A stretch of 64,000 nucleotides of DNA. Origin: Bacteroidota bacterium (GTDB lineage: Bacteria > Bacteroidota > Bacteroidia > Bacteroidales > WCHB1-69). Below the pieces are notes generated by a model that was not told where the DNA came from, did no database searches, and saw only the letters and a list, made by a program, of their open reading frames with translations. Below are positions 4,583 through 48,825 of this stretch, piece after piece. A program made the position numbers and the translations under genes. The stretch spans positions 6,802-70,801 of the forward strand of contig WQTS01000139.1 of NCBI GenBank assembly GCA_009786185.1, in the 5' to 3' direction. The number at the start of each line of letters is the position of its first letter. The stretch's first letter is position 1.

Positions 4583-4589
4583 CAAAAAA

Positions 4590-13075: not shown

Positions 13076-13174
13076 TCTGCACGGATATTGCAGATAATTT
13101 TCCAATCAATTGATAATGCTCTAACGTATTGTGAAAACTTTTTCTACATTTGCACCGTCGAAAACTATATCTGT

Positions 13175-13362
13175 TTAAACAAAAACTATAACGACTTAGA
13201 TAATAATTACAGAGACTTAAATAAAGCTATCATAGTTTACACAATAACTACAAAAATTTAGATAATAGCTAAATTAACTTAGACAAAAACTAAAACATTT
13301 TAGATAAAAACTAAAATAATTTAGATAAAAACTACAACAATTTAAACATTAACTAAAATACT
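13175..13362. repeat. Tandem array, about 9 units of 21 bp (consensus TTAGATAAAAACTAAAACAAT)
   Basis: Successive units start at 13175, 13196, 13217, 13237, 13258, 13279, 13300, 13321 and 13342. The three central units are near-identical. Confidence 0.85.
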
Positions 13363-13439
13363 ATACTTAATTATATCAACAAGCAACATTAAAGACCGTA
13401 ATCAATAAAAAATATCTATAAATCCGAAAGTATTTAATT

Positions 13440-14093
13440 ATGGCAACTTCAAAAAAAAATGAAACACAAGACAAAAAGAAAGAAAAACTGATTATTTCAG
13501 AAACCGAATTGAAAAAATTACACGATGAAGTGTATAATTTAACGCAACAGTTTCCTCAGATTTCGCAAGATATTGCCCTGTCGGATGCTGAACGTAAACA
13601 GATGCGCGGCTCCGGTATTCGCCGGTACGGATTCATTGATAAAGTGAGCGATTTGGCTATGGAAAACCCAAAGTTTGTGCCACCATATATGGACGTAAAT
13701 GAATTAAAGAATCTGATACGTCAGATTGAAGTGTTGCGTAATACTGCGGCAAATCTTCAGCAAATGCTCCGAATGGTAAACGATGAATTGCTCACAGACG
13801 GCAATGAAGCATACCGCCTTGCACTCATTTACTACAACTCTGTGAGTAGCGCTTCACGTAGTCGGGTGCCCGGCGCTGAAGCTCTGTTTAATACGTTGAG
13901 ACCGTTCTTTAAATCATCTTCGTCCAAAAGCACGGGCGAGCTTACCGAAAAGAAAGTAATGCACGATGCAAAGAAACTTATCAAGGGTAAGGCTGACGGA
14001 AAAATTATCATCAAAAACGAAAAACCTGCCACTTCCGGAGGCATTCACGAAGTAATTGACGAAGTGCACAGCGGACACACAGCTTTTGAGTAG
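13440..14093 (+). CDS. Hypothetical protein (Lys/Glu-rich, predicted helical)
   Basis: Long ORF with a coding-like composition. I recognise no motif. Confidence 0.5.
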   Translation: MATSKKNETQDKKKEKLIISETELKKLHDEVYNLTQQFPQISQDIALSDAERKQMRGSGIRRYGFIDKVSDLAMENPKFVPPYMDVNELKNLIRQIEVLRNTAANLQQMLRMVNDELLTDGNEAYRLALIYYNSVSSASRSRVPGAEALFNTLRPFFKSSSSKSTGELTEKKVMHDAKKLIKGKADGKIIIKNEKPATSGGIHEVIDEVHSGHTAFE

Positions 14094-17635: not shown

Positions 17636-18664
17636 ATGAAAAAAAATACACTATTAAGCCTCGTGCTGATGTTTGCAGGATTTATAGCCACAGCACAAAA
17701 CAATAGAATGATGCCTCATCATTTTTCCTCACAACACCCACAACTGGAATACTCGGATTTTGACTATTCTGATATGAAAAATCCCTATCTTCTATTGCAC
17801 AAAGCCAAATCAGGCAAAGATTGGTGGCAACCAGATACGGTATATGTGTATCCTCCCAATTCTGAACAGCCATCCCATCGAGAAATATTTTCTTATAATG
17901 CACAGGAATTGCTAACAGAATATTTACAGCAAAGCTGGCAAAATAACAATTGGGTGAACGACCGGAAAGATTTCTATACCTACGATACGCAGAATAAGCC
18001 TCTAACACGATTATCCCAAAGCTGGTATGGCACTAACTGGGTAAATAACTTTAGAAATATTTATACTTATGATGCACAGAATAACTTGATAACAGATTTA
18101 TTCCAAGGATGGTATGGCAATTGGGTGAATAGCTGGAGAGATACTTATACCTACGATGCGCAGAATAACTTACTAACAGAATTAGGCGAAACATGGCAAA
18201 CTGACAATTGGATGAATAGCGACAAAGGTATGTGGACTTATGATGAAAATAATAATAGTACCACAGTAGAATATTGGGTTTGGCAAGATGAGGATTGGCA
18301 GCAAGGTACAGTCCCTCTAACCTTATTCTACAACAATATGCAAAGTTATATCCGGGCATACAGTTCAGGGCATAAACGCACCGCCACCTACTTCAAATTA
18401 ATGACAAACATTGCCGAAAACGCCGCCGTCAATATTACGGTTTATCCAAACCCAACGAACGGACAATTACAAGTGAAGAGTTATGAGTTACAAGTTACAA
18501 GTATTTCCTTTTTCGATATTTACGGTAGAAGTATACAGACGCCGTCTATGTCGTTATCGTCTCCCGAAACTGTAATAGACCTTTCACATTTGCTGAGCGG
18601 TCTTTACTTTGTGAGAATATCCACCACTGTAGGAGAAATAGTTAAAAAGATATTGAAAGAGTAG
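17636..18664 (+). CDS. T9SS cargo protein with YD-like repeats
   Basis: Signal peptide. Repeated NWVN..YTYDAQNNLIT units. Type-A T9SS CTD (VYPNPTNGQLQV...FFDIYGRS...LSGLYFVRI...KKILKE). Confidence 0.75.
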   Translation: MKKNTLLSLVLMFAGFIATAQNNRMMPHHFSSQHPQLEYSDFDYSDMKNPYLLLHKAKSGKDWWQPDTVYVYPPNSEQPSHREIFSYNAQELLTEYLQQSWQNNNWVNDRKDFYTYDTQNKPLTRLSQSWYGTNWVNNFRNIYTYDAQNNLITDLFQGWYGNWVNSWRDTYTYDAQNNLLTELGETWQTDNWMNSDKGMWTYDENNNSTTVEYWVWQDEDWQQGTVPLTLFYNNMQSYIRAYSSGHKRTATYFKLMTNIAENAAVNITVYPNPTNGQLQVKSYELQVTSISFFDIYGRSIQTPSMSLSSPETVIDLSHLLSGLYFVRISTTVGEIVKKILKE

Positions 18665-27419: not shown

Positions 27420-28025
27420 TTACAAATCTACACCCACGCCAATTCTAAAAAACGGATAATAATTATGAGTGTAATTATTGATGGTGGGTTGGGTTATCGG
27501 AATATTAAAAAGTACTAAAGCTTGAAAAAAGACGCGCGGAGCGATATATTGTTTGTAGCCGCCGCCTACGACAGCAAAATGAAAATTGTAAGCTTGTGAA
27601 GGCGAGCCATCTAACCACCTAAAATGGTTTTGTTCAAATTCATAGCCTGCATGCACTACAATTCTCTTAATAATACATGGTTGCAGCGCCACGCCAAGCC
27701 CCCAAATATGCGAATCATAAAAATTTCTTTGCCACATGTAGGTGTATTGTCCATTTGCTATCACGAGCAACCAAGGCTTAATATAAACGCCCGCTTGCGG
27801 TGATATGCTCACTGCGCTACCAAAGTTTCCGAATTGCACGCCAAAGCCACCGCCAACAACAATTTTCGGTCTGCCTTTTTTTGCCGGTATCTCTTTTTGC
27901 AGGCTTTGCGGGGGCGGAGGGGTGTTTTGAGCGAAACAAGGCACAAAGGAGAAGGGAGAAAGGAGAAAGGAGAAAAAGAGAATTTTGAATTTTGAATTTT
28001 GAATTTTAAATTTTGGATTATTCAT
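27420..28025 (-). CDS. Small beta-barrel-like hypothetical protein; signal peptide encoded by repeat DNA
   Basis: N-terminus MNNPKFKIQNSKFKILFFSFLLSPFSFVPCFAQ, then an alternating aromatic/Gly-rich sequence ending ...FFRIGVGVDL. Confidence 0.5.
   Translation of the reverse strand: MNNPKFKIQNSKFKILFFSFLLSPFSFVPCFAQNTPPPPQSLQKEIPAKKGRPKIVVGGGFGVQFGNFGSAVSISPQAGVYIKPWLLVIANGQYTYMWQRNFYDSHIWGLGVALQPCIIKRIVVHAGYEFEQNHFRWLDGSPSQAYNFHFAVVGGGYKQYIAPRVFFQALVLFNIPITQPTINNYTHNYYPFFRIGVGVDL
27930..28016. repeat. GA-rich GGAGAA(A/G)G tract plus 7-bp tandem GAATTTT x about 5
   Basis: aaggagaagggagaaaggagaaaggagaaaaagag followed by aattttgaattttgaattttgaattttaaattttgg. It overlaps the first roughly 30 codons of the minus-strand ORF. 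Confidence 0.85.
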
Positions 28026-28040
28026 TTTGCAATATTATTT

Positions 28041-28155
28041 TTAAATATAAACTACCTAGTCCAGCTTTGCCGTTCATCCTTTCAAAATTTGAAGAGGATT
28101 TTTTCGTCATTCCGAGTAAAGCAAGGAATCTCCTCCTTTCTCCCTTCTCCTTTCT
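28041..28155 (-). repeat. Degenerate copy of the composite GA-rich / CTTCAAAATTTGAAG / TAGTTTATAT element
   Basis: The reverse complement reads agaaaggagaagggagaaaggagga ... aatcctcttcaaattttgaaaggat gaacggcaaagctggac taggtagtttatattt. Compare 4590-4640 and 39536-39640. Confidence 0.75.
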
Positions 28156-29156: not shown

Positions 29157-29246
29157 AGTATGTTTTTTTATTGTTTTAAAAAATGTTTGGCAAAAATAAT
29201 TTTTTTAGTGATACGCGGCAAGTGACAGGTAAGCGTATTATTTTTT

Positions 29247-29336
29247 TACACAGAGAGCCACAGAGAAGGCACAGAGAATCACGGAGGGTTTTCATCTCTG
29301 TGGTTCTCTGCGTCTTCTTCGTGTAACTCCGTGAAA
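29247..29336. repeat. CTCTGTG-word palindromic element (second copy, arms in opposite order)
   Basis: cacagagagccacagagaaggcacagagaatcacggagg ... ctctgtggttctctgcgtcttcttcgtgtaactccgtg. It lies in the divergent intergenic region between pta and the TPR gene. Confidence 0.8.
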
Positions 29337-34313: not shown

Positions 34314-37217
34314 ATGTTCACCCTCTATAAAGCCTCCGCCGGCTCCGGCAAAACCTCACGTTTAGTAGTAGAATATTTGGCGTTGTGCCTGCCACAGCCC
34401 GAAAAATTCAAACACGTACTTGCCATCACATTTACCAATAACGCTACCGCCGAAATGAAATCACGTATCGTGGATACGCTTTCTGAATTTGCTTTTGAAC
34501 CTGAAATTACTTCCAAGTTTCCCATTTATCATACATATAATCAAGTTATCGCAAAGATCGCATTGCATCTGCCTGAAAATGAGAAATTTCCTTACATAAA
34601 AAAACAATCGAAATTACTATTAGAGAAGATTTTATATGAATACGACCGCTTTTCCATCAGCACGATAGATAGTTTTTTTCAACGCATTTTGCGCGCTTTT
34701 GCTTTGGAGTTTGGGCTTTCTTCACAATTTAATTTAGAAATAGAATTGGACGATTTTTTCCGGGAAACGACCGCCGTTTTATTGCATCGCATTTCTAAAA
34801 ACAACGAACATCTTACCCAACGCGTGTTAGATTTAGTTGAAAATATGATGTTGGAAAAAGGGAAATGGAAAATTGAAAAAGAAATTCTCAAATTGTTGAA
34901 AATTAGTTTGGAAGAGGAGGTTTATCTTCCATTAAAAGAACTACAAGAATCTGAAAATACAGATTTTGAACAAGCGAAGAAAAAAATTAACCAAGAGATT
35001 TATCGTTTGAGAAATCAATTGAAAAACTTTACAACGAAAGAAGAGAAGAAGTCAGAGGCTTGCCTAATGCTCAAAGAACAATTGTTAGAGTATGAATTTT
35101 TTGGCAAAAATCTGTTTCAATTAGCATTGTTATTTGATTTAAAGATGATTATGGATGAAATTAAAATGCAAGACAATCTCTTTTATCTTTCGGAAACCAA
35201 TACCAAAATAAAGGAAAAATTGGGCAACGATGACGTTCCTTTTATCTACGAAAAAATTGGGAATCAATACTCTTATTTTTTTATTGATGAGTTTCAGGAC
35301 ACATCTAAGTTACAGTGGCAAAACATGATACCGCTACTAAGAGAAGCATTGGCAGGTACAAACAGATTTTACGAGCAGGGAAAAGTTTTTCTTTTCGGCG
35401 ATGTGAAACAGGCGATTTACCGTTTTCGCAACGGCGATGCAGATATTTTACAACAACTTTCTAACATTGAAGGTTACAAATCTGCCGTTTTGCCCTATTC
35501 AAAGCCGGAAGAAGATTATCGCGTGGAGTTATTGGATACTAATTTTCGCTCTTCAAAAAAAGTAATAGAATTTAATAATGCATTTTTTGATTTTTTAACT
35601 GCTGAAAACGGACCTTTTCACGAAGCGAAAGACTTTTACGAAGATGTGAAGCAAAAAACAAAACCCACCGCCGAAGAAGGCTTGGTAACGGTGCGTTTTC
35701 AAGAAGAGGAAGATAACCGCAAGTTTCAGGAATTTATGCCGGAACATGTCTTGGAAACTGTTTTAGACGCACTTCAACGCGGATACGCCTACAAAAATAT
35801 TGCCGTATTAGTGAGCAACAATGATTCGGCGAGCGCCATAGGCACATTTTTAATTGCCAACAACATCCCGATTATTTCTGCCGAATCGTTGCAACTGTCC
35901 GCATCCTCCGAAATTAATCTGTTGATCGCCACTTTGCAATATTTGGTTTCTGAAGAAGACAAATTGGCAAAATTGACAATGATTCATTATTTGGCGCAAC
36001 AAAATAACCTCCTATTAGAAAATTACATGCCTTGCATGCAAAATGAGCATGCCTTCCAACAGTTTTTAACAAATATTAATATCAACATTAGCAGAAAAAA
36101 ATTAAATTCACTTCCTTTATTCACCTTAATAGTCGAACTAAGTCGAATTATGTCGCTCTCCGTATGCAACCCATTTCTAATAAGATTATTAGACGAAACC
36201 GAAAAATTCGCCACAAAACGCAACGGTTCTACTCCCTTATTTTTAGAGTGGTGGGAAGAAAAAGGGCAAACCCTGGCGCTTTCTACTCCTCCGGGCATTG
36301 ATGCCGTAACAATTTCTACCATTCACAAATCCAAAGGATTAGAATATCCTGTTGTAATTTTTCCATTTAGCCGCTACAGCAATTTTAAAACCAAACCCGA
36401 TATATTTGTGAAAGATGAAAATCGCGTTACCGGTTTAGAATACGATTGGGTAACTTTATCCGATAAAAAAACGCCCGCGCGCTACCGGCACAAATACGCC
36501 GAAGAATCAAAGAAAACGCTGATTGATCAGTTAAACAAGTTGTATGTTGCCCACACCCGCGCGAGAACCGAGTTGCACATCATTACCGAAAAACCAAATG
36601 CGAGGGCGGGGAATTATAGTAAGTTTTTGGCAGCGTTCGGTGCGAGATATGAGGTTGGAGGTATGCGGTACGAGGTGTGCGGTGAGCGGTATGCGGTGGA
36701 CGGTGAATGGGAAATAAAAGGCAGAAAACAGAAAACAAAAAGCAATACACCACTTTGCGAACCATCTCTTCTGCCCTCTGCTCATCACCTCGCACCTCAC
36801 ACCTCATACCGCATACCGCATACCACCCAGCAACTCCGCGGCATCTTCATCCACAATTTCTTATCTTCTTTAACAACGTTTCCTCAAAACGAAAAAGAGA
36901 TAGACTGGGTGGTACAAAACGTAGAGGAAGCGTACAAAAAAGATCTTGCAAATATTTTTTATAAAATTCTGAATGACAAATCACTATCTCCATACTTTGT
37001 TTCGGAAGTAAAGGTGTTGAATGAAACTTCCATTTTGTTCCCAAACGGCAATTTATTGCGCCCCGACCGTGTAGTTTTTTTAGAAGACCGAACAGCGGTC
37101 ATTGACTATAAAACAGGCGAACCCAATGCTTCGCACAAAGAGCAGTTAGAACAATATTGTGAGGCTATTCGTGCGATGGGGTATGGAAATGTAGAGGGGC
37201 ATATTTTGTATGTATAA
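34314..37217 (+). CDS. UvrD-type helicase with C-terminal PD-(D/E)XK nuclease (AddA/RecB-like); carries an in-frame palindromic insertion
   Basis: Walker A ASAGSGKT, FIDEFQDTS, helicase motif VI-like LYVAHTRART, C-terminal nuclease motif RPDRVVF...IDYKTGE. Confidence 0.75.
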   Translation: MFTLYKASAGSGKTSRLVVEYLALCLPQPEKFKHVLAITFTNNATAEMKSRIVDTLSEFAFEPEITSKFPIYHTYNQVIAKIALHLPENEKFPYIKKQSKLLLEKILYEYDRFSISTIDSFFQRILRAFALEFGLSSQFNLEIELDDFFRETTAVLLHRISKNNEHLTQRVLDLVENMMLEKGKWKIEKEILKLLKISLEEEVYLPLKELQESENTDFEQAKKKINQEIYRLRNQLKNFTTKEEKKSEACLMLKEQLLEYEFFGKNLFQLALLFDLKMIMDEIKMQDNLFYLSETNTKIKEKLGNDDVPFIYEKIGNQYSYFFIDEFQDTSKLQWQNMIPLLREALAGTNRFYEQGKVFLFGDVKQAIYRFRNGDADILQQLSNIEGYKSAVLPYSKPEEDYRVELLDTNFRSSKKVIEFNNAFFDFLTAENGPFHEAKDFYEDVKQKTKPTAEEGLVTVRFQEEEDNRKFQEFMPEHVLETVLDALQRGYAYKNIAVLVSNNDSASAIGTFLIANNIPIISAESLQLSASSEINLLIATLQYLVSEEDKLAKLTMIHYLAQQNNLLLENYMPCMQNEHAFQQFLTNININISRKKLNSLPLFTLIVELSRIMSLSVCNPFLIRLLDETEKFATKRNGSTPLFLEWWEEKGQTLALSTPPGIDAVTISTIHKSKGLEYPVVIFPFSRYSNFKTKPDIFVKDENRVTGLEYDWVTLSDKKTPARYRHKYAEESKKTLIDQLNKLYVAHTRARTELHIITEKPNARAGNYSKFLAAFGARYEVGGMRYEVCGERYAVDGEWEIKGRKQKTKSNTPLCEPSLLPSAHHLAPHTSYRIPHTTQQLRGIFIHNFLSSLTTFPQNEKEIDWVVQNVEEAYKKDLANIFYKILNDKSLSPYFVSEVKVLNETSILFPNGNLLRPDRVVFLEDRTAVIDYKTGEPNASHKEQLEQYCEAIRAMGYGNVEGHILYV
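36636..36832. repeat. Palindromic element with GGTATGCGGT/GAGGTGTG-word arms, inside the helicase-nuclease CDS
   Basis: Left arm gaggtatgcggtacgaggtgtgcggtgagcggtatgcggtgg is an imperfect reverse complement of the right arm cacctcgcacctcacacctcataccgcataccgcataccaccc. They flank an A-rich core and are translated as ...GARYEVGGMRYEVCGERYAVDGEWEIKGRKQKTK...HLAPHTSYRIPHTT... Confidence 0.85.
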
Positions 37218-39042: not shown

Positions 39043-39537
39043 ATGTTTATGAGTAAAAAAAAGAACAACAAAGAGATCGAGCTTAATGAGCAAGTTGAAA
39101 TTCTAAATGCAGAAAAAGCAGAATTAAATGATCGCTTTTTGCGCCTTTATTCAGAATTTGAAAATTATAAAAAACGAACCAACAAGGAAAAATTAGACCT
39201 TATAGCCACCGCTTCAGAAAGAGTTATCTTAGGACTGCTCCCTATTGTGGATGATTACGAAAGAGCCATTAAACACAACCAAAACACAGAAGATATTGCC
39301 ACTTTAAAAGAAGGATTTACGCTTATTTACAGCAAATTATTAACATTATTAAAACGTTTTGAAGTAGAAGAAATCATCGCTTTAGGCGAAATCTTTGATA
39401 CCGATTTGCACGAAGCAGTTACGCATCTTCCCGCACAATGCGAAGAAGATAAAGGAAAAATAATGGACGTTACCGAAAAAGGATACAAGCTGAAAGACAA
39501 GGTGATACGGTTCTCGAAAGTGGTAGTGGCAAATTAG
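39043..39537 (+). CDS. grpE: Nucleotide exchange factor GrpE
   Basis: RLYSEFENYKKRTNKE ... GLLPIVDDYERA ... pattern, directly upstream of dnaJ. Confidence 0.9.
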   Translation: MFMSKKKNNKEIELNEQVEILNAEKAELNDRFLRLYSEFENYKKRTNKEKLDLIATASERVILGLLPIVDDYERAIKHNQNTEDIATLKEGFTLIYSKLLTLLKRFEVEEIIALGEIFDTDLHEAVTHLPAQCEEDKGKIMDVTEKGYKLKDKVIRFSKVVVAN

Positions 39538-39640
39538 GAGAAAGGGAGAAGGGAGAAAATGGGAGAAAGAAGGGAAACGGAAGAATAATCCCCTTCAAAT
39601 TTTGAAGGGGTGGCTCGCGAAGCGAGACGGGGTAGTTTAT
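39536..39640 (+). repeat. Composite repeat (GA-rich tract, CCCCTTCAAATTTTGAAGGGG hairpin, ctcgcgaagcgag hairpin, GGGGTAGTTTATAT) filling the grpE-dnaJ spacer
   Basis: Best-preserved copy of the family also seen at 4590-4640, 24596-24677 and 28041-28155. It ends 16 nt before the dnaJ ATG. Confidence 0.85.
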
Positions 39641-39655
39641 ATTAAAAAAAGTTAA

Positions 39656-40956: not shown

Positions 40957-42498
40957 ATGAGAAAAATATTACTTTTCTTTACCATTTTAATAACTACAAC
41001 TACCATCTCGCTTGCCCAAGAGCGCTTAGTAACCCGTGGCGCAAACTCCGGCGAATTATATTTAACCACTGATTGGTACGGAATATATCAACCTATGGGA
41101 CCTCCATTTTATGACACCCTGTATAGATCCGTTTTCCGGTTGACCGAAAATGGTAAGAAATTAACCATACCATATTCCTTAAATCTTATAGGTAGCTATC
41201 CCATACATGAAGTAATGTATCCCAGTATTATCCTTGCAGATGCCACACCCGGAGTAGTATATAACAAGTATTCCTATATAAGTGGTAGTAACCGTACGCA
41301 ACTTTGGGTAAGTTTCGATTATGGGAAAAATTGGTTGCTTAGAGAAGACAGTATAGGAAGAAGAAGATTTCATGTAGCAAATGTTGAAGGTTTTATATAT
41401 AGAGCAGGAAGTGATGGAACATACAAAAGCGAAAATTATGGTGATTTTTTCTCTAAAATAGATATTGTGTCCGCAGGGTCTGAACCTGGCTTGCTTAGTG
41501 GGGAAGCTTTTAGTATAGGTACTTACAACTCTTACCAAGGTAGATTTTTACATACATATAATTTTTATGAAACTTATACAGAAGTTCCTTTAGACAGCCA
41601 ATTTGTCTTTGGCAACGTGATGGGTATATTCCCTGATGTTTACCGGGGAGGTAAAGAAGGCGAGGTGTATGTGAGCTCTGCATTTCCGGACGGAACATAC
41701 AGAGTATCTTTTAGCGCAGATATCGGGCAAACTTTTCGTCATGTGCATATTTGTTATGGTTTTGATTGTTTTCTCATAACAGGTAACGGGGTTGAAATAG
41801 CAACCACTTTTATGTCAGACCGCGAGCCGGGCGTTTTTTATATCATCAAAACCTATTGGGTAGAAGATCTAAATCCTTGGGGTTTCCACAAAAAAATTTG
41901 TATTATGTATTACCGGGACTACGGAGAAACATTGGAAGCTACTTTTTGCCACAATATTACTAAAAACTATGAATATAAGGAAGTAAATTGTGATTATGCT
42001 ACCTTGTTAGAATCAAATGTTAATCAAAATTCAATTCAATTACAATGGAACTGTTCGGCAAATAATTCGTACATTCGTGGTTATCATATTTACAGAAACA
42101 ACATGCGCATAACCACCCAATTACTAATGGAATCTACCTACTTAGATGAAAACTTACCTAATGGTAATTATGAGTATTATGTGAGAACGTATTATGTTGA
42201 AGGCTGTGTATCAGACAGTTCAAATCATGTAAGAGAAACTATTGAACTTGGAGTTAAGGAAATTAAGGAATTAGAAGGAGTTATTTTATTACCAAATCCA
42301 ACCACAGGTAAGTTACAAGTTCAAAGTTCAAAGTTTAAAGTGACAAGTGTAGAGGTTTTTGATGTATATGGAAGAAAGCAGAAGGCAGAAAGCAGAAAGC
42401 AGAATGAAATAGATATTTCAGAATTGCAAACAGGTATCTATTTTGTAAGACTTCAAACTGAAAAAGGAATTACAACAAAAAAAATAGTAAAACATTAA
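40957..42498 (+). CDS. T9SS cargo protein with Fn3-like domain
   Basis: Signal peptide, IQLQWNCSANNSYIRGYHIYRNN (Fn3-like), type-A CTD (LLPNPTTGKLQV...VFDVYGRK...TGIYFVRL). Confidence 0.7.
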   Translation: MRKILLFFTILITTTTISLAQERLVTRGANSGELYLTTDWYGIYQPMGPPFYDTLYRSVFRLTENGKKLTIPYSLNLIGSYPIHEVMYPSIILADATPGVVYNKYSYISGSNRTQLWVSFDYGKNWLLREDSIGRRRFHVANVEGFIYRAGSDGTYKSENYGDFFSKIDIVSAGSEPGLLSGEAFSIGTYNSYQGRFLHTYNFYETYTEVPLDSQFVFGNVMGIFPDVYRGGKEGEVYVSSAFPDGTYRVSFSADIGQTFRHVHICYGFDCFLITGNGVEIATTFMSDREPGVFYIIKTYWVEDLNPWGFHKKICIMYYRDYGETLEATFCHNITKNYEYKEVNCDYATLLESNVNQNSIQLQWNCSANNSYIRGYHIYRNNMRITTQLLMESTYLDENLPNGNYEYYVRTYYVEGCVSDSSNHVRETIELGVKEIKELEGVILLPNPTTGKLQVQSSKFKVTSVEVFDVYGRKQKAESRKQNEIDISELQTGIYFVRLQTEKGITTKKIVKH

Positions 42499-42503
42499 CC
42501 ATT

Positions 42504-42911
42504 ATGAAAAAATTATTTATCATTTTAGTATTAATAGGGTTGTTTGTGTCTTTATCTAAAGCACAGCAATGGGTAGGTTTTGCCTCTTCTACTCCAGGAG
42601 TTCCCGAAGTAAATATTCTCAGTTCTAATGCTCAAGGCGTAAGTCTTGAATTATCCATCTCGGGTATTTACACTGTGGATACCATAGTAAACGGAACCGC
42701 TTTTACCCGCTTGGTTTTACCCGGGGGAAACGTTATTAATCCCGCAGGATATCCGGAGTTGCCCGTGTTGAAATATAAAATAGCTATACCAGCGTGTTCC
42801 GGAACAGAAATAGTATATAATGTAGTGTCGCGCACTGCCATGAACTCTTGTTGGGTGATGCCGGTACCCAAAATTATTCCCACTATAATTCAGAGGGTAT
42901 GGAGTATGTGA
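42504..42911 (+). pseudogene. N-terminal fragment (signal peptide plus first half of the C25 propeptide domain) of a frameshifted C25-like gene
   Basis: MKKLFIILVLIGLFVSLSKAQ ... GVSLELSISGIYTVDT..NGTAFTRLVLPGG..GYPELPVLKYKIAIP is the propeptide_C25 pattern. The domain continues in another frame in 42848..46759. Confidence 0.6.
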
Positions 42912-45900
42912 AAGAGTTTGCATTCGACTCTACCGCCTACAATCAGTTCCGTTTGGTTGAGCCGGTTGCCTCGGTTAGATCAAGTGGCTTTTTTCGTTCA
43001 CAGGGCTACATTGAGATCGTGGTAAAACCGATCGAATTTTGTCCTGTTAGCCGACAATTGTCTGTTATTGACAAAGTTGAAATAAACATTAGCTTCACAA
43101 ACCCGCAGGGTGAAATAAGGCAAAATGTTGGTATTTTTAACGGCGTGGCATCTAATACTTTCATTAACTATGAAGACGATGGATTGCGCGCCGGTGCAAA
43201 CGATAAAGCTTTTCTCCAAAAAAACGCTACTCCCGGTAAGGTAAAATGGATTAATCTTTCGGCTCCCGAGCAGGCTGATACTATTGTTGCAGACTACTTG
43301 ATTATTTGCGCCGAGCCATTCTACAATTCTTCCGATACTTCACAAGTAAGTCGTTTGGCAAGACACAGAGCATATTACAATGGATTCGACGTAGCTGTCC
43401 TCAACGTCGAAAATATTATGTCCGACTTATTGGGTTTTGAGTATGAAGGAAATCCAAATGATCCTGATCCTAATAATTGGGATATTTACAAGAAAGAACA
43501 GCGTATCCGCACGTGTATTCGCCGGATTTACGAGGGGCAAAATGCACAGAACATGGGAGATGGTTATTTGGGTTATGTAGTGTTAATTGGCGATGTTCTT
43601 GAAAACAACACTCTTATGCCCACATCGTATGATCATGATTTTCCGCCTTTTGATGGACATATATATAGACCATCAGACTACTATTTTACGTGCATTACTA
43701 AAGATTCTAATGATCAGTACGACAATATGGGTGATTTATTTATTGGTAGAATAAGTGTTGAGAATCATACTCATTTATTTAACATGATTGAAAAGACAAT
43801 ATATTATGAATCCGAGTTTGACCCAAGAAATTGGCGTAAGGCGGCAGGGTTTTCTAATCGTTATGCGGGTTATCCATCCACTCATGAGCTTTTTAACAGC
43901 TATGTGAGAGATATATTAGACGAAATTGGATGGGATTATTATTTTGTAAATAGTTGGGAACAGCCGGGAGGGTTAATTAGGGATTCAACGATTCATTACT
44001 TTAACAAAGGAGTAGCATTTGTTCAATACACGGGCGTAGCGTCACATAGCATAAATTGGGCGGATTTACTTCATTTAGATTTTGAGATGCGGCTAAATAA
44101 TGATTACCAAACTCCCTTTGTTAATACCTACGCCCCCAATACCGGTTCGTTTACCAATTCATATTGGACAACGTTAGGATGCCTAGCTGAGTTTTTAACG
44201 CGCTATTCTCCAACAAAAGGGGCTGTTGGTTATATTGGAGCTTTTGGCGGCTGGGCAGATAGTTTTTTTGAAATCATTGATACTACGGATCTGTATTACA
44301 AAGATATTTATCCATATTTTCTTTGGAAAAAGAAACTTCCCATTGCCGGAGAACTTCTATTAGCTGCAAAAACTCAATGTAAATCTATGCCCAGGTGGTT
44401 TACTTTTGAGGGCAATATACTAGAAGAATCAGGTCCACATATTTTCAATCTTTTCGGTGACCCTGCTCTTAACATCTTAGCTGAGGGATATGAAATAACA
44501 CGCAATGCAACCGCTGACTGTCAAACCACATTATTCGGCACCGTACATATACGTAACGGCGCAACTTTGACAGTTTTATGCGATTTTTATTGTGCCGAAA
44601 ATGCCAATATCGTAGTTCATCCCGGCGGCAAATTAATAGTAAATGGAGGAACTTTAACAAATATACCTAATGGCGACATGTGGCAAGGCATTACCGTCTT
44701 AGGCGACGGCACTTCCAACGTGGCAACACAAGGTTTAGTACAAATAATAAACGGCGGCAAAATCGAAAACACCATCACCGGCATTCACGCCATAGGTGGC
44801 GGAAAGATAGATGCAAACGAGGCACAATTTGTAAACAATAGCATCGCCGTGCAAATAGACCCTGTGGCAGCCACCCTATTGAGAACCTCGGCAAGTTTTA
44901 CAAAGACGCAATTTCTCCTCAACGATAATTATTTAGGAAATTTTTTAGATTTTGAAACCCATTTAAAGCTATCCGACTGCAAACAGGTTACGCTTACAGC
45001 ATGTACACTCTCCAATGAAGCCACCATAAAAAGTTATGCTACAGGAAAAAACACAGGAATTTGGGCGTTCAACGCTCCTTTAACCGTACGGGAAAATTGT
45101 CCATGGTGGTCTCCAATACATTACCCAAGCGGCGAGTGTATGTATCCGGAACGATCTACATTCTCAGGGTTTAACGTTGCCATCTTTGCAACCAATTCGG
45201 GCAAAACGCCATTTGTATCTATCCTGTATAGTGAATTTTCAAACAATCTATACAGTGTAAGACTGAATACCGTAGATTATACAAGATTAATTAAAAATGA
45301 TTTTCAACTCACTCAACACAACTCCTACGGGAGTTATGTAATCAATTCTACAGGGTATGCGATAGAAGAAAACCATTTTAGAGATATTCTGCCTGCCCCA
45401 GGCAAAGTAACCGTAGGATTAACGGTTTCCAATAGTGGCAGCGCTGAAAACGAGGTGTATAAAAATACATTTAGTAATTTGTATGTTGGTCAACAGTTCT
45501 TATGTCAAAACGCTGCACTGATTGGTTTCGATGGTTTAACGTTTCCCGGACTACAAACCTTATGCAATACTTTTAACAATAGCCAATACAGAGATATACT
45601 TGTGGGGGATTTTGGTTTTGGTTCCATATCATCCTGTAGGGATAATACCATTAGGTCATCCCAAGGGAGTTTGCAAAGACCTGCGGGCAATTCATTTAGC
45701 CAAACATTTGCTACTCACTTTGAAAGTCAATCCTCGTATTCCATTACGTATTATTATGGCATAGGTTCAAATGAAAATCCCAATATTTCAGGACTTATTA
45801 CTACATCCTCAACAGGTAGGCAAAGCTCGTGTCCTTCACGTATCGGAGCGCCTCACAGAGGAGAAGGCTTGGAGCATGCTTTAGCCCAATACAATGAATG

Positions 45901-46759
45901 GAATGCCGAATATGAATATTGGCTTGCTAAACTCCTTGCATTTGTAGGCGATAATGAAGAAGGGTATCATGAGGTTTTGCAAATGGTTTCTTATTACAGC
46001 GCATTGAAAGATAATTACTTTAATTCAATTATTGTGGCGGTGATAAATGAGAAGAAAGGAGAAAAGGAGGAAGGAGAAGGAAATTTATATGAAAAATTAA
46101 GATTTCTTTTCGGCTATCGCGGGCATTACACTGATTATCTTTCTATTACAGAAACTTTCTTAGCTGAAAATAATTTTGATGAAACATTAGCAACATTAGC
46201 GAAAATGTATAAACAATTTGAAGTTTCAAAAGAACAAATTTTTGAATTAAAGGGTTTGGAATCTTACGCTCTATGGTTACAACAATTAGAAAAAGAACAA
46301 AAGAGTATCTATAAGTTGTTTGAAAAAGAATTGAATTATTTGATAAATTATGTTGAAACCAACACCGGACGAGGCACAGTATTTGCAAAAAATATTTTGT
46401 GCGAATTATACAATATTTGTATTGAAAATGGAGAAGGCGCGAAAGCGGAAAGCGGTGATGATGAAATGATTGATCTGTGTAAATCTGTTACATCTGTGCC
46501 ATCTGTGTGCGAAAAAAACGCCCTCGAAAATATCACCATTCATCCCAATCCCACTACAGGAGAATTAACAATTTCGAGTACCGGACATCAGATATCGGAT
46601 ATCGAAATTTTTGATGTTTACGGAAGAAAAATATCATCTCACCATCTCTCCTCATCATCTCATCAAAAAATTGACATCTCGCATCTCAATTCCGGCATTT
46701 ATTTTATTAAAGTAATTACAAAACAAGGAAATATAGTTAAGAAAGTGGTGAAACAGTAA
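42848..46759 (+). CDS. C25 (gingipain)-like T9SS protein body with beta-helix-like region and type-A CTD
   Basis: Rest of the propeptide domain (FAFDSTAYNQ...IEIVVKPIEFCPVSRQLSV). C25-like core (ADYLIICAEPFY, VVLIGDV, GAVGYIGAFGG). CTD IHPNPTTGELTI..IFDVYGRK..SGIYFIKV. Only a TTG start, consistent with being the downstream part of a frameshifted gene. Confidence 0.65.
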   Translation: MLGDAGTQNYSHYNSEGMEYVKEFAFDSTAYNQFRLVEPVASVRSSGFFRSQGYIEIVVKPIEFCPVSRQLSVIDKVEINISFTNPQGEIRQNVGIFNGVASNTFINYEDDGLRAGANDKAFLQKNATPGKVKWINLSAPEQADTIVADYLIICAEPFYNSSDTSQVSRLARHRAYYNGFDVAVLNVENIMSDLLGFEYEGNPNDPDPNNWDIYKKEQRIRTCIRRIYEGQNAQNMGDGYLGYVVLIGDVLENNTLMPTSYDHDFPPFDGHIYRPSDYYFTCITKDSNDQYDNMGDLFIGRISVENHTHLFNMIEKTIYYESEFDPRNWRKAAGFSNRYAGYPSTHELFNSYVRDILDEIGWDYYFVNSWEQPGGLIRDSTIHYFNKGVAFVQYTGVASHSINWADLLHLDFEMRLNNDYQTPFVNTYAPNTGSFTNSYWTTLGCLAEFLTRYSPTKGAVGYIGAFGGWADSFFEIIDTTDLYYKDIYPYFLWKKKLPIAGELLLAAKTQCKSMPRWFTFEGNILEESGPHIFNLFGDPALNILAEGYEITRNATADCQTTLFGTVHIRNGATLTVLCDFYCAENANIVVHPGGKLIVNGGTLTNIPNGDMWQGITVLGDGTSNVATQGLVQIINGGKIENTITGIHAIGGGKIDANEAQFVNNSIAVQIDPVAATLLRTSASFTKTQFLLNDNYLGNFLDFETHLKLSDCKQVTLTACTLSNEATIKSYATGKNTGIWAFNAPLTVRENCPWWSPIHYPSGECMYPERSTFSGFNVAIFATNSGKTPFVSILYSEFSNNLYSVRLNTVDYTRLIKNDFQLTQHNSYGSYVINSTGYAIEENHFRDILPAPGKVTVGLTVSNSGSAENEVYKNTFSNLYVGQQFLCQNAALIGFDGLTFPGLQTLCNTFNNSQYRDILVGDFGFGSISSCRDNTIRSSQGSLQRPAGNSFSQTFATHFESQSSYSITYYYGIGSNENPNISGLITTSSTGRQSSCPSRIGAPHRGEGLEHALAQYNEWNAEYEYWLAKLLAFVGDNEEGYHEVLQMVSYYSALKDNYFNSIIVAVINEKKGEKEEGEGNLYEKLRFLFGYRGHYTDYLSITETFLAENNFDETLATLAKMYKQFEVSKEQIFELKGLESYALWLQQLEKEQKSIYKLFEKELNYLINYVETNTGRGTVFAKNILCELYNICIENGEGAKAESGDDEMIDLCKSVTSVPSVCEKNALENITIHPNPTTGELTISSTGHQISDIEIFDVYGRKISSHHLSSSSHQKIDISHLNSGIYFIKVITKQGNIVKKVVKQ
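46474..46511. repeat. TCTGTG-word repeat translated inside the C25-like CDS
   Basis: tctgtgtaaatctgttacatctgtgccatctgtgtgcg is related to 12133-12160. It is read as DLCKSVTSVPSVCEK. A GA-rich tract (gagaagaaaggagaaaaggaggaaggagaagg, about 46050-46082) lies about 400 nt upstream in the same ORF. Confidence 0.6.
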
Positions 46760-46868: not shown

Positions 46869-48002
46869 ATGGATAATTTCATTGTTTCCGCCCGTAAATA
46901 CCGCCCATCCACATTTAACACAGTGGTAGGGCAAGATTCTATCGTTTCTACTCTCAAAAACGCAATCAAAACACAACAAGTAGCACAAGCATTTCTGTTT
47001 TGCGGTCCGCGGGGAGTGGGCAAAACCACCTGCGCCCGTATATTTGCAAAAGCACTTAACTGCCACCATCTTACTCCGGATTTTGAACCTTGCAACGAGT
47101 GTGAATCCTGCAAATCGTTCAACGCATCGGCATCTTTCAATGTGTATGAATTGGATGCCGCTTCCAATAATTCCGTAGAAGATATTCGTTCGTTAGTAGA
47201 ACAGGTGCGTATCAGTCCGCAGGGAGCCAAATTTAAAGTGTATATCATTGATGAGGTTCACATGCTTTCTAATCAAGCATTTAATGCTTTTTTAAAAACG
47301 CTGGAAGAACCTCCTGCGTATGCTAAATTTATCTTGGCAACTACGGAAAAACATAAAATTATTCCCACTATTTTATCACGTTGTCAAGTATATGATTTTA
47401 AGCGCATTGGAGATAACGACATTATGAAGCATTTGGCTTACGTAGCAAGCAATGAAGCCGTGCAAGCCGAAGAAGAAGCATTGCGCGTGGTAGCCTCAAA
47501 AGCCGACGGCGCGCTAAGGGATGCACTCTCCATTTTCGACCAGTTGGTAAGCTTCTCCGGAAAAAATATTACCTACCAAACCACCATTCAACATCTGAAT
47601 GTGTTAGATGTAGATAACTATTTTAAAATGACCGACTTTTTATTTAGCGAAGATAGCTCCGATGCACTTTTACTTTTTGATGAAATTTTAAACCGCGGTT
47701 TCGACGGACAACACTTTATTTCCGGATTGGCCGCACATTTTCGCCAGTTGTTAATGGCGCAAAACCCTGCTACCATCAAATTAATGGAGGTCTCCGATAC
47801 CGTAAAACAACGTTTTTTCGAACAAGCCAAAAAAGCCGATAAACAGTTGTTACTCCGTGGATTAGAATTAGCCAACCAGTGCGATTTTAATTACAAACTA
47901 TCTCAAAACAAACGTCTTAGCGTAGAAATCTGTTTGATGCAAATCAATGGAAATTACGTATATAAGCTAAACGCAGGCGTCAGGCAATCACGGGAGAAAT
48001 AG
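46869..48002 (+). CDS. dnaX: DNA polymerase III subunit gamma/tau, N-terminal (domains I-III, gamma-like) ORF
   Basis: AAA+ clamp-loader motifs FLFCGPRGVGKTT, Zn module CHHLTPDFEPCNECESC, YIIDEVHML, SRC motif (ILSRCQVYDF). Confidence 0.9.
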   Translation: MDNFIVSARKYRPSTFNTVVGQDSIVSTLKNAIKTQQVAQAFLFCGPRGVGKTTCARIFAKALNCHHLTPDFEPCNECESCKSFNASASFNVYELDAASNNSVEDIRSLVEQVRISPQGAKFKVYIIDEVHMLSNQAFNAFLKTLEEPPAYAKFILATTEKHKIIPTILSRCQVYDFKRIGDNDIMKHLAYVASNEAVQAEEEALRVVASKADGALRDALSIFDQLVSFSGKNITYQTTIQHLNVLDVDNYFKMTDFLFSEDSSDALLLFDEILNRGFDGQHFISGLAAHFRQLLMAQNPATIKLMEVSDTVKQRFFEQAKKADKQLLLRGLELANQCDFNYKLSQNKRLSVEICLMQINGNYVYKLNAGVRQSREK

Positions 48003-48033
48003 TGTAGAGCCCTCGCCCACCGGAGTAGGCAAT

Positions 48034-48825
48034 TTGGTGCCCTCCACCAGCCCACAGCAATCCACACGCGGATTCGTGGCGCCATCCTCCATGCCCGTAA
48101 AGAAAACACCGGATATTACCGATATTATCGGAGAGAAAGAGGTGAGCGGTAAGAGGTATAAGGTGAGCGGTGAAGAAGTAGAAAGCGAACCGATTGTAGG
48201 GGCGCAAAATCTTGCGCCCAGTGCCAAAGAAAAAGAAGGAGAGAGAAAAGATGAGAGAGAAAAGGAGAAAGAGGAAGCAAGAAGAGAAACGGAAGAAAAA
48301 TTCCTTCTCCTTTCTGAGGAGAAGGTGGCAGACGACGGCTTGCCGGCGGCTGACGGAAGAGGTGATGAAGAACAAAGTGATAAATCAACTGAAACACAAC
48401 CTCAATCGAAAGAAGAACCATTACATACCACGAACCTCGCACCGCATACCGCAACCCACACACCGCAACCCGCACCCGATTTCCCCACCCACTGGCGCAC
48501 CATGTTCAACCACGTCTTCGCATCCGTGCCCACCATCTATTTCTCATTAAAAGAAACATTACCCGAAATAGAAAACAACATCATCAAAGTCGTCGTCAAA
48601 AATGATATTCAAAAAGAACATTTTGAAGCTAAAATAAGAGACGTTTTAGAATTTTTACGCACGAATTTCAATGAACAAGTAGAAGAGATAATTGTAGAGG
48701 CTAACGAACAATTGGAAACCAAGAAAATTATTTACGATGTAAAAGACAAATTGCAAAATTTCAAAGAGCAAAACTCTGAATTTGACGATTTTATACAAAT
48801 ATTAGAACTAAAAATAAAAGACTAA
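48034..48825 (+). CDS. DnaX C-terminal (tau-specific-like) region as a separate ORF in the +1 frame
   Basis: The C-terminal roughly 110 aa (WRTMFNHVF..IYFSLKETLPEIENNIIKVVVKNDIQKEHFEAKIRDVLEFLRTNF...) resemble the conserved C-terminus of full-length Bacteroidota DnaX. The N-terminal two-thirds is repeat-derived low complexity. This frame is open from 47971. Confidence 0.6.
   Translation: MVPSTSPQQSTRGFVAPSSMPVKKTPDITDIIGEKEVSGKRYKVSGEEVESEPIVGAQNLAPSAKEKEGERKDEREKEKEEARRETEEKFLLLSEEKVADDGLPAADGRGDEEQSDKSTETQPQSKEEPLHTTNLAPHTATHTPQPAPDFPTHWRTMFNHVFASVPTIYFSLKETLPEIENNIIKVVVKNDIQKEHFEAKIRDVLEFLRTNFNEQVEEIIVEANEQLETKKIIYDVKDKLQNFKEQNSEFDDFIQILELKIKD
48128..48480. repeat. Nested composite repeat block in the dnaX linker
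   Basis: Outer GGTGAGCGGT/GGTATGCGGT-word arms (48135-48178 and 48421-48478) enclose the hairpin ggggcgcaaaatcttgcgccc, a GA-rich tract (48225-48295) and the 74-nt double-hairpin module (48295-48368). Confidence 0.8.

What the first reader, a model, noticed from the sequence alone, without database searches (positions are those of the whole stretch)
36636..36832. About 200-bp palindromic element with GGTATGCGGT-word arms inserted in frame in the linker of an AddA-like helicase-nuclease
Imperfect arms of about 40 nt (36650-36700 versus 36785-36830) are built from the words GGTATGCGGT and GAGGTGTG. They flank an A-rich core. The whole element is translated as GARYEVGGMRYEVCGERYAVDGEWEIKGRKQKTKSNTPLCEPSLLPSAHHLAPHTSYRIPHTT. 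It sits between the last helicase motif (LYVAHTRART) and the C-terminal PD-(D/E)XK domain, an interdomain position where an insertion would be tolerated. The same word family forms the outer arms of the dnaX repeat block (48135-48178 and 48421-48478). Both strands of the element are open, which is why the track shows three shadow ORFs here.
Basis: seen in the sequence. Interest (0 to 1): 0.7.

Follow-up and report, generated by a model that had tools for sequence, protein, structure and literature searches.

The report
Hypervariable heptamer-repeat linker in a helicase-nuclease
The 200-base palindrome is real, but it is one version of a fast-changing, disordered protein linker that this group of Bacteroidales fills with 7-base tandem repeats and tiny hairpin elements. 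It is not a single mobile element that once jumped into the gene.

Summary
Window 36632-36825 is an imperfect palindrome translated in frame between helicase motif VI and the PD-(D/E)XK domain of a UvrD/AddA-like protein. Its arms are tandem heptanucleotide arrays (GGTATGC/GGTGAGC/GAGGTGT, 21-nt = 7-aa superperiod). They enclose a weaker inverted pair of GCAGAAA-type arrays. The same arm family flanks the block at 48135-48478, which lies in a DUF8439 ORF downstream of dnaX, not in dnaX itself.

The reading "one discrete element inserted" is not supported. No ortholog shows an empty site and there is no target-site duplication. In all 39 close homologues this linker is hypervariable and made from a shared pool of modules. 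The pool holds several heptamer families, E1/E2 mini-hairpin cores and CGTC-tagged REP-like hairpins. All 88 homologues of the DUF8439 protein show the same pattern. Genomes 94-95% identical in the flanks carry unrelated linkers. Near-identical alleles differ by an exact 21-nt array step or by an 81-nt REPIN-like insertion.

Only 6 of 11 linkers with DNA in hand are palindromic, so the hairpin is not a conserved function. AlphaFold2 predicts the segment to be disordered. The best reading is selfish or neutral repeat DNA turning over in a permissive linker, filtered only for an open reading frame. It resembles Rickettsia RPEs and cyanobacterial STRRs but is not a member of either family.

The parts
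34314..37217 (+). Host gene: a 967-aa UvrD/AddA-like SF1 helicase with a C-terminal PD-(D/E)XK nuclease motif
   Evidence: ORF list, translation, Pfam. It is identical to the NCBI MAG protein P0001.
36632..36825 (+). Hypervariable linker segment, which is the element of the finding. It is bounded by the points where homology to the syntenic relative L002 stops and resumes.
   Evidence: blastn of window against L002, protein alignment, AF2 disorder at residues 780-835, equal to nt 36651-36818.
36641..36706 (+). Left outer arm: about 9 tandem heptamers of family a (GGTATGC/GGTGAGC/GAGGTGT). The 21-nt superperiod is read as (A/M/E)RYEV(G/C)G.
36718..36745 (+). Inner left array of GCAGAAA type (family c), read as GRKQKTKS
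   Evidence: The same family sits at the aligned position in many homologues as AESRKQKAE.
36746..36769 (+). Non-repetitive centre (loop) of the palindrome
   Evidence: It partly matches the centre of L005 (ATACCACTT).
36770..36784 (+). Inner right arm, a weak complement of the GCAGAAA array (TCTCTTCTGCCCTCTGC)
   Evidence: Base pairs in the MFE structures.
36785..36829 (+). Right outer arm: about 6 tandem heptamers complementary to family a (TCACCTC/ACACCTC/ATACCGC), read as HLAPHTSYRIPHT
48034..48825 (+). Second host gene: a DUF8439-family ORF just downstream of dnaX. Its N-terminal linker is built from the same modules.
48135..48178 (+). Left outer arm of the second block (family a heptamers)
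48421..48478 (+). Right outer arm of the second block (complement of family a)
   Evidence: (D5).
48226..48368 (+). Inner modules of the second block: a GGAGAAA-type array (48226-48298) followed by the two-hairpin E2 core (48297-48368)
   Evidence: (D4).
1459..1565 (+). Second copy of the GGGAGAA array plus E2 core (86% identical over 105 nt). It lies in frame inside chorismate synthase.
   Evidence: (D4).
39537..39642 (+). Intergenic copy of a GGAGAAA array plus the E1 core (AAT-CCCCTTCAAATTTTGAAGGGG-TG-hairpin-ACGGGGTAGTTTATAT). Other E1 cores are at 4587-4642(+), 24596-24639(-) and 28045-28100(-).
27945..28155 (.). Third locus with inverted heptamer arms: AAAGGAG arrays at 27945-27977 against CTCCTTT at 28133-28155. 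They enclose a GAATTTT array, an E1 core and a REP-like hairpin.
   Evidence: z = -6.4.

Best explanation
The segment is one allele of a repeat-built, intrinsically disordered interdomain linker. It is not a functional unit and not a single transposon.

In this Lentimicrobiaceae-like Bacteroidales clade, a small repertoire of short DNA modules accumulates wherever sequence is unconstrained. The repertoire holds heptanucleotide tandem arrays of a few recurrent families, E1/E2 two-hairpin cores and CGTC-tagged REP-like hairpins. The modules occur in intergenic spacers and in the disordered linkers of at least two housekeeping proteins.

In the window allele, two family-a arrays in opposite orientation enclose two weaker GCAGAAA-type arrays. 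Together they form a nested quasi-palindrome.

Steps that are shown:
(i) Arrays change by slippage in 21-nt steps (3 units = 7 codons).
(ii) Discrete hairpin modules are present or absent between near-identical alleles.
(iii) Whole linkers are replaced between genomes that are 94-95% identical in the flanks.
(iv) The frame stays open in every homologue, and TGA-containing units are kept out of phase.

Steps that are inferred:
- The inverted copy arose by fold-back or intrastrand template switching during replication. That process can create and re-homogenise hairpin arms.
- The same unit families spread between loci by an unidentified copying process, for example microhomology-guided ectopic template switching or recombination.

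The protein only needs a flexible spacer of about 60-90 residues. Selection therefore filters for an open frame and nothing else.
For: Hypervariability: in 39 homologues of 61-82% identity, the linker between ...GNYSKFLA.F and QQ.RGIFIHNFL is built from 7-aa repeat peptides and module peptides. The DUF8439 linker between KKTPDITDIIGE and DFP shows the same pattern with the same modules in 88 homologues.

Turnover:
- Window against L002: the flanks are about 85% identical and the segment is unrelated.
- L086 against L087: the flanks are 94% identical, and 200 nt against 157 nt are unrelated.
- L092 against L091: an exact 21-nt indel lies inside a family-a array. L090 against L091: an 81-nt insertion of two inverted CGTC-tagged hairpins. 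These alleles are 94-98% identical.
- E1 and E2 cores occupy the same nested slot in L002 and the window respectively.

Lineage trait: period-7 arrays number 1.6-3.0 per 10 kb in the window and close relatives, against 0.24 in 844 kb of distant Bacteroidota loci. The unit families recur across different genes.

The hairpin is not conserved: only 6 of 11 linkers have z at or below -3, and the + and - strands fold about equally well.

Disorder: AF2 pLDDT is below 50 for residues 780-835.

Not a protein domain: phmmer against 1.84 billion representatives gave 14 hits, all generic heptad-repeat ORFs.

Frame filter: 1608 of 2340 cyclic heptamer classes are stop-free. Units with TGA (GGTGAGC, GAGGTGA) are interleaved or mutated so that TGA falls out of frame (sequences).

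Literature:
- Template switching creates and maintains hairpin arms (PMC8794818, PMC7202029, PMC8604942).
- Heptanucleotides are the commonest long SSR unit in bacteria. Dispersed arrays of a single heptamer occur in some Bacteroidetes with no known spreading mechanism (PMC4679880).
Against: - Slippage alone predicts locus-specific units, yet about 5 families recur in unrelated genes and genomes although roughly 1600 stop-free units are possible. Some copying between loci must therefore exist, and I did not identify it.
- Family a is the outermost layer in both genes. That pattern is what terminal inverted repeats of a mobile element would give.
- The test for concerted evolution of the two arms was inconclusive. 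An arm is not consistently more similar to its own partner than to arrays in other genomes, so the fold-back or template-switch origin is unproven.
- Complete replacement between 94-95% identical genomes could also come from recombination with divergent alleles rather than in-situ turnover.
- All relatives are metagenome assemblies, and short-read assembly of repeats can distort copy numbers.
Confidence: 0.6

Rival explanations
1. A discrete non-autonomous mobile element of MITE or RPE type. Its terminal inverted repeats are tandem heptamer arrays serving as multiple binding sites for a transposase. It inserted in frame into the helicase linker and, independently, into the DUF8439 linker. Inner layers are later nested insertions, and one-armed copies are decayed remnants.
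For: Arms of the same family form the outermost layer in two unrelated genes and abut the conserved flanks. The structure is nested, with discrete cores inside. Arm peptides are patchily distributed over the homologue tree. Other modules at the same sites behave as insertions.
Against: No empty site exists in any of 39 plus 88 homologues. There is no target-site duplication. Arm length and unit composition vary freely, and one arm can change by 21 nt without the other. L088 carries about 160 nt of one-orientation array with no partner. Only two loci occur in 64 kb, and their interiors are unrelated. None of the 39 window ORFs is a transposase.
Confidence: 0.2
2. A dedicated enzymatic system of this clade actively writes or copies these modules into single-stranded or hairpin DNA. 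Candidates are a RAYT/IS200-605-type ssDNA transposase or a reverse-transcriptase-like activity. Hairpin loops would be the preferred target, so that palindromes grow from the centre outwards.
For: CGTC-tagged REP-like hairpins occur as an inverted doublet (REPIN-like) that is present or absent between 98% identical alleles. The second hairpin of E1 varies by compensatory changes around GAA/AAA/GAAA loops. E1 and E2 share the scaffold AAT-hp1-TGG-hp2-ACGG and the same slot. The layer order is nested, with the most widely shared family outermost.
Against: No such enzyme gene lies in the window, and I could not examine the rest of the genome. Most heptamer arrays in the window have no inverted partner. 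Array changes look like simple slippage.
Confidence: 0.15
3. A selected nucleic-acid structure: an mRNA or DNA hairpin between the two domain-coding regions. It might pause translation for co-translational folding, stabilise the mRNA or act as a regulatory site.
For: The predicted hairpin is strong. Similarly strong hairpins occur in L004, L005 and L089.
Against: Five of 11 orthologous linkers have no excess structure, including L006, L007, L087 and L088 with z near 0. The closest relative, L002, has only small unrelated hairpins. Both strands fold equally well. Rfam gives no match.
Confidence: 0.04

Closest known systems
Rickettsia palindromic elements (RPEs; Ogata et al. 2000 and 2002, as summarised in PMC10969869)
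   Same: Palindromic DNA of about 100-200 bp lying in frame inside housekeeping genes. It is translated as extra peptide at positions compatible with protein function. Several families exist per genome.
   Different: RPEs are discrete elements of fixed length, each family with a conserved peptide, and they show clear insertion against empty orthologues. Here the arms are variable tandem heptamer arrays, no empty site exists, and the whole linker turns over. The host is Bacteroidales, not Rickettsia. I expect no sequence relation and did not test for one.
Long simple-sequence repeats with heptanucleotide units: cyanobacterial STRRs, and TAACTGA arrays in Beggiatoaceae, Cyanobacteria and some Bacteroidetes (PMC4679880; Mrazek 2007 as cited there; Mazel 1990 and Vioque 1997 from memory, with Vioque's title seen in the reference list of PMC2858038)
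   Same: Tandem 7-nt units. A few unit families are dispersed over many loci of one lineage. Copy number changes stepwise. Stop-codon content governs where arrays can sit. From memory, STRRs also sit as opposed arrays that lengthen a helix of RNase P RNA in heterocystous cyanobacteria.
   Different: The known arrays are overwhelmingly intergenic. Here they build the coding sequence of linkers in essential genes, with a 21-nt superperiod. They are paired as inverted arrays and mixed with hairpin modules. The unit sequences also differ.
REP/REPIN elements mobilised by RAYT transposases (PMC3116915; GTAG- and CGTC-tagged REPs, PMC3733652)
   Same: Short tagged hairpins (cGTCATTCCGAGCG.AGCGAGGAATc) occur in the same linkers and spacers. 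In L090 they form an inverted doublet that is absent from a 98% identical allele.
   Different: The arms of the finding itself are tandem arrays without a tag, not REPs. REPs are by definition extragenic, whereas here they are translated. No RAYT was seen in the window.
Small dispersed repeats (SDR) of Nostoc (Elhai et al. 2008, Genome Res 18:1484). The paper is not held in the library, so the comparison is from memory plus the mentions in PMC5861425 and PMC3116915.
   Same: Very small elements (under 100 nt) that occur nested inside one another and within hairpin-forming contexts. Their transposition mechanism is unknown.
   Different: A different phylum and different sequences. I could not check that paper's details on flanking heptamers or coding insertions.
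Quasipalindrome-associated template-switch mutagenesis (PMC7202029, PMC8794818, PMC8604942)
   Same: It provides a known route to create an inverted copy in one event and to keep imperfect arms complementary, including inside coding sequence.
   Different: This is a mutational mechanism, not an element family. Its action here is inferred and not demonstrated (one search was inconclusive).

Membership tests
MITE (miniature inverted-repeat transposable element) | Terminal inverted repeats | tested here: met
   Arms are 38-45 nt and 73-82% complementary. However, they are tandem arrays of variable length rather than fixed termini.
MITE (miniature inverted-repeat transposable element) | Target-site duplication flanking the element | tested here: not met
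   No direct repeat is seen at the boundaries 36632/36825 or 48135/48478.
MITE (miniature inverted-repeat transposable element) | Multiple copies of one conserved sequence and length in the genome | tested here: not met
   There are only two loci in 64 kb. They share the unit family but not the interior or the length.
MITE (miniature inverted-repeat transposable element) | Empty site in orthologues or close relatives | tested here: not met
   L002 and all 39 homologues have the site filled with other sequence.
MITE (miniature inverted-repeat transposable element) | Cognate autonomous element or transposase with the same ends | not testable with these tools
   No transposase is found among the 39 window ORFs. 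The rest of the genome is not available.
Rickettsia palindromic element (RPE) | In-frame location in protein-coding genes with translation of the palindrome | tested here: met
   The ORF is continuous. The frame is kept open in all homologues.
Rickettsia palindromic element (RPE) | Discrete element with a conserved family peptide and clear presence or absence between orthologues | tested here: not met
   Only the 7-aa repeat motifs recur, and there is no fixed element.
Rickettsia palindromic element (RPE) | Sequence homology to the RPE families of Rickettsia | not tested
   No RPE reference sequences were available. The host is a Bacteroidales MAG.
Heptanucleotide LSSR / STRR-type tandem repeats | At least 3 tandem copies of a 7-nt unit | tested here: met
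   TRF period 7 with 5.4 copies (left arm) and 3.4-4.1 copies (right arm); periodicity scan.
Heptanucleotide LSSR / STRR-type tandem repeats | The same unit family dispersed over many loci of a lineage, enriched over related lineages | tested here: met
   The families recur across genes and genomes. Density is 1.6-3.0 arrays per 10 kb against 0.24.
Heptanucleotide LSSR / STRR-type tandem repeats | Stepwise copy-number variation between close alleles | tested here: met
   An exact 21-nt (3-unit) indel lies in a family-a array between alleles 95.6% identical (L092 vs L091).
Heptanucleotide LSSR / STRR-type tandem repeats | Identity with the described units (STRR1-3, TAACTGA) | tested here: not met
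   The units here are GGTATGC, GGAGAAA, GCAGAAA, AAGTTCA and GAGTTAC. None equals TAACTGA (PMC4679880) or, from memory, the STRR units.
REP / REPIN | A 20-40 nt imperfect palindrome with a GTAG or CGTC tag, often as inverted doublets | tested here: not met
   The arms of the finding are untagged tandem arrays. Neighbouring modules do meet the feature: window 4560-4583 and the L090 doublet.
Structured functional RNA or regulatory hairpin | Structure conserved among orthologues with compensatory change | tested here: not met
   Five of 11 orthologous linkers have z above -2. Rfam gives no match.

The most novel reading that the evidence does not exclude
This Bacteroidales clade harbours a previously undescribed system of ultra-small mobile modules: heptamer arrays of fixed families plus E1/E2 and REP-like mini-hairpins. 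An unidentified mechanism acting on ssDNA or hairpins copies them between loci. They nest into one another's loops. They rewrite the disordered linkers of essential proteins (a helicase-nuclease, the DUF8439 protein next to dnaX, chorismate synthase, T9SS sorting domains) much faster than point substitution. This would be a bacterial counterpart of RPEs and cyanobacterial SDRs with a new mechanism.
Probability: 0.25. Interest if true: 0.75.

Novelty: new variant of a known kind. Interest (0 to 1): 0.5.

Why it matters
The locus shows that a disordered linker in core replication and repair proteins can be built almost entirely from selfish or slippage-prone repeat DNA. The linker is completely replaced between genomes that differ by only 5-6% elsewhere.

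Three consequences follow:
- It is a clean natural example of de novo coding sequence derived from repeats.
- It warns against treating such segments as domains or as single insertions during annotation and alignment.
- It gives a set of loci (this linker and the DUF8439 linker) where the unexplained spread of fixed heptamer families could be studied. That spread has been noted before in Cyanobacteria, Beggiatoaceae and some Bacteroidetes.

Tried and rejected
- Genome-contig scan with the protein: it returned only a 29%-identical Shiella locus and no close genome.
- Metagenome-contig scan with alignment A1: the tool chose very general helicase motifs. Only 3 of the 80 loci were close relatives. 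The rest served as a distant control set.
- The search for homologous proteins with a synthetic family-a peptide: no hit passed E <= 0.001, so I could not measure how many other proteins carry family-a arrays.
- phmmer of the 64-aa segment: 14 hits, all unrelated heptad-repeat ORFs.
- Rfam: only a tRNA.
- Strand asymmetry of folding, used to tell an RNA-level from a DNA-level hairpin: none found.
- Test of whether each arm is closest to its own partner (concerted evolution): inconclusive. Long arrays in other genomes score as high or higher. My first impression of co-evolving arms from window against L002 is therefore not claimed.
- Programmed frameshift joining dnaX to the downstream ORF: considered because a conserved peptide overlaps the dnaX stop. 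Homologues have their own ATG there, so I did not pursue it.
- Elhai 2008 and Vioque 1997 could not be read because they are not held.
Full report
OBSERVATION

The repeat finder gives arms at 36653-36690 and 36787-36824 (38 nt, 82% complementary), and a longer pair at 36641-36685 and 36785-36829 (73%). The 199-nt stretch folds better than all 200 dinucleotide shuffles: as RNA on either strand z = -3.8 and -4.2, and as DNA z = -3.1. Thirteen control 200-nt tiles of the same gene average z = -0.28.

The translation, the LYVAHTRART motif and the position upstream of a PD-(D/E)XK-like C-terminus are correct. The three overlapping ORFs exist.

In a strict scan, 7 is the only period between 4 and 12 that gives periodic runs anywhere in the window. 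The 21-nt superperiod explains the 7-aa peptide repeat (RYEVGG/RYEVCG/RYAVDG). Inside the outer arms lies a weaker inverted pair of GCAGAAA-type arrays around a 24-nt centre.

WHAT THE RELATIVES SHOW

The protein is identical to one from an NCBI MAG named 'Bacteroidetes bacterium'. The closest named relatives are Lentimicrobiaceae and Bacteroidales MAGs.

I aligned 39 homologues of 61-82% identity plus distant ones. The flanks (...GNYSKFLA.F and QQ.RGIFIHNFLSSLT.FPQNEK) are conserved. The 57-93 residues between them differ in every close homologue. They consist of 7-aa repeats and a few recurring peptides: RYEVCG.../...PHTSY, EKGEGRKGE, AESRKQKAE, ELRVTSY, RLDDEMM/SSNHLI, SPSNFEGV..GRGSLY and RHSE.SEES. 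Homologues at 38-44% identity have a non-repetitive linker of similar length.

A syntenic contig from a relative (L002, about 85% nt identity) aligns up to window 36631 and again from 36826. Between those points the window has 194 nt and L002 has 248 unrelated nt. So there is no empty site, and the boundaries mark where protein constraint ends, not the ends of an element.

A still closer pair, L086 and L087, has flanks 94% identical at the nucleotide level. It carries 200 and 157 nt of unrelated linker.

On an NJ tree built without the linker, the family-a arm peptides are scattered through nearly all subclades, and sister sequences differ in having them.

Of 11 linkers for which I obtained DNA, six are strongly palindromic: window, L002, L004, L005, L008 and L089, with z from -3.1 to -8.6. 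Five are not: L006, L007, L086, L087 and L088. L088 has about 160 nt of family-a array in one orientation only.

THE SECOND LOCUS

It lies in ORF 48034..48825, not in dnaX (46869..48002). Homologues of that ORF carry Pfam DUF8439.

In all 88 homologues the N-terminal linker, between KKTPDITDIIGE and DFP, is again hypervariable and built from the same modules. Window and L002 share the nested layout: a-array, a GGGGCGCAAAATCTTGCGCCC hairpin, a GGAGAAA array, a core, then the complementary a-array. The core differs. The window has E2 (two hairpins plus AAGAGGTGATGA) and L002 has E1 (CCCCTTCAAAATTTGAAGGGG-TG-hairpin-ACGGGGTAGTTTATAT).

E2 with its GGGAGAA array also sits in frame in chorismate synthase (1459-1565). 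That copy is 86% identical over 105 nt to the copy at 48264-48368. E1 occurs four times in the window, and it is translated inside the helicase linker of other homologues.

DIRECT EVIDENCE OF THE PROCESSES

Three DUF8439 alleles that are 94-98% identical (L090, L091, L092) differ in two ways:
- An exact 21-nt indel lies inside the family-a array, equal to three units or seven codons.
- L090 has an 81-nt insertion made of two inverted CGTC-tagged hairpins (GTCATTCCGCGCTTGACGCGGAAT and the complement of GTCATTGCGGGCTTGACCCGCAAT). This is REPIN-like, and it is read through in frame.

Similar REP-like hairpins occur at window 4560-4583 and near 28104-28131, and inside the helicase linkers of L006 and L002.

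Period-7 arrays number 1.6 per 10 kb in the window and 3.0 in close relatives, against 0.24 in 844 kb of distant Bacteroidota loci. The unit families (GGTATGC-like, GGAGAAA, GCAGAAA, AAGTTCA, GAGTTAC) recur in unrelated genes, including T9SS sorting domains.

Arrays inside ORFs are stop-free in the frame used, and intergenic ones (TCACTAA, GAATTTT) are not. Units that contain TGA (GGTGAGC, GAGGTGA) are interleaved or point-mutated so that TGA is out of frame. The stop filter is weak, since 1608 of 2340 unit classes pass it. It therefore does not explain why so few families recur.

PROTEIN LEVEL

AlphaFold2 with the 39-sequence alignment gave a moderate model (mean pLDDT 67). It shows residues 780-835 at pLDDT below 50 with no secondary structure, between confident helices. 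phmmer of the 64-aa segment against 1.84 billion representatives found 14 hits, all generic heptad-repeat ORFs. The segment is therefore a disordered spacer and not a domain.

INTERPRETATION

The best-supported reading (confidence about 0.6) is that this is selfish or neutral repeat DNA turning over in a permissive linker.

Shown:
- slippage in 21-nt steps;
- gain or loss of discrete hairpin modules;
- wholesale replacement between close genomes;
- preservation of the reading frame.

Inferred:
- The inverted arrays arose by fold-back or template switching, a known route to create and maintain hairpin arms (PMC8794818, PMC7202029, PMC8604942).
- Unit families spread between loci by some copying process.

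My test for concerted evolution of the two arms was inconclusive.

Three rivals remain:
- A MITE/RPE-like element with heptamer-array termini (about 0.2). The outermost position of family a in two genes favours it. The lack of an empty site, of a target-site duplication, of fixed ends and of partnered arms in several alleles argues against it.
- A dedicated hairpin-targeting enzyme system (about 0.15). The REPIN-like doublet, the compensatory variation of the second E1 hairpin and the shared E1/E2 slot suggest it. No enzyme gene lies among the 39 window ORFs.
- A selected hairpin function (about 0.04). It is contradicted by the lack of conservation.

COMPARISON WITH KNOWN SYSTEMS

The locus works like Rickettsia RPEs, which are palindromic DNA translated in frame in housekeeping genes (PMC10969869). 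It fails the RPE and MITE membership features that I could test.

Its arms meet the definition of heptanucleotide long SSRs or STRR-type repeats. The literature notes that heptamers are the commonest long SSR unit and that single heptamers can be dispersed in some Bacteroidetes with 'no mechanism evident' (PMC4679880). Those arrays are mostly intergenic, use other units and are not paired.

I found no description of repeat-built coding linkers of this kind in the held literature. The most relevant paper, Elhai 2008, could not be read.

VERDICT

I rate this a new variant of a known kind. Interest is moderate (0.5). The element itself is ordinary junk-like DNA. The clade-wide phenomenon, and the unexplained recurrence of a few unit families in essential genes, are worth a follow-up.

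Noticed in passing
window 46869-48825: The dnaX-like ORF (377 aa, clamp-loader ATPase) stops at 48000-48002. The next ORF (DUF8439 family) overlaps that stop in another frame in homologues, which start MQASGNHGR... In the window that ATG is ACG (47971-47973), so the true start here is unclear.
   Followed up: partly
window 1459-1565: A GGGAGAA array plus the E2 two-hairpin core lies in frame in chorismate synthase (residues about 152-183, read as EKGKGRREKGEKFLLLSEEKVADGDLSASDGRGD). This region does not align to the best PDB hit (yeast chorismate synthase 1r52), where the match splits in two.
   Followed up: partly
window 4587-4642, 24596-24639(-), 28045-28100(-), 39587-39642; L002 17517-17572; L008 5422-5476 and 5598-5653; L086 6417-6466: E1 module: AAT-CCCCTTCAAATTTTGAAGGGG-TG-[short GC hairpin]-ACGGGGTAGTTTATAT. 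The second hairpin varies by compensatory changes around GAA/AAA/GAAA loops (GCGAAGC-type mini-hairpins). In the reverse orientation, the first hairpin followed by a T-run looks like an intrinsic terminator, for example downstream of the gene ending at 4637. E1 was found only in the close clade.
   Followed up: partly
window 42310-42408 and 46584-46665: Heptamer arrays (AAGTTCA, AGAAAGC, others) are translated inside the T9SS C-terminal sorting domains of two secreted proteins (ORFs 40957..42498 and 42848..46759). They replace the variable loops of the domain.
   Followed up: no
window 12150-12275 and 29240-29335: Intergenic palindromes built from 10-11-nt tandem units (TCTCTGTGG.. against ..CCACAGAGA). 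Their predicted hairpins are very strong (z = -6.8 and -8.2). This is another class of inverted tandem arrays in this genome.
   Followed up: partly
window 11514-11548: Five tandem TCACTAA/TCATTAA heptamers end 16 nt upstream of the ruvC start codon (11565). The placement recalls the TAACTGA arrays just upstream of start codons described in Beggiatoaceae and Flexibacter (PMC4679880).
   Followed up: no
window 4560-4583(-), about 28104-28131(+); L090 1221-1291; L006 8375-8398: CGTC-tagged REP-like hairpins (cGTCATTCCGAGCG.AGCGAGGAATc). In L090 an inverted doublet (REPIN-like, 81 nt) is inserted in frame in the DUF8439 linker and is absent from a 98% identical allele.
   Followed up: partly
window 13161-13370: An AT-rich 21-nt tandem repeat (about 6 copies, with 42- and 62-nt higher-order periods) lies in the intergenic region upstream of ORF 13440..14093, which has no Pfam match.
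   Followed up: no
window 40957-46759 against L002: Two T9SS-secreted protein genes, one a C25 peptidase, lie between dnaJ and dnaX in the window. They are absent from the otherwise syntenic L002 contig.
   Followed up: no
window 17946-18196: Coding tandem repeats of 84-87 nt (about 2.8 copies) occur in the T9SS-tailed protein ORF 17636..18664.
   Followed up: no
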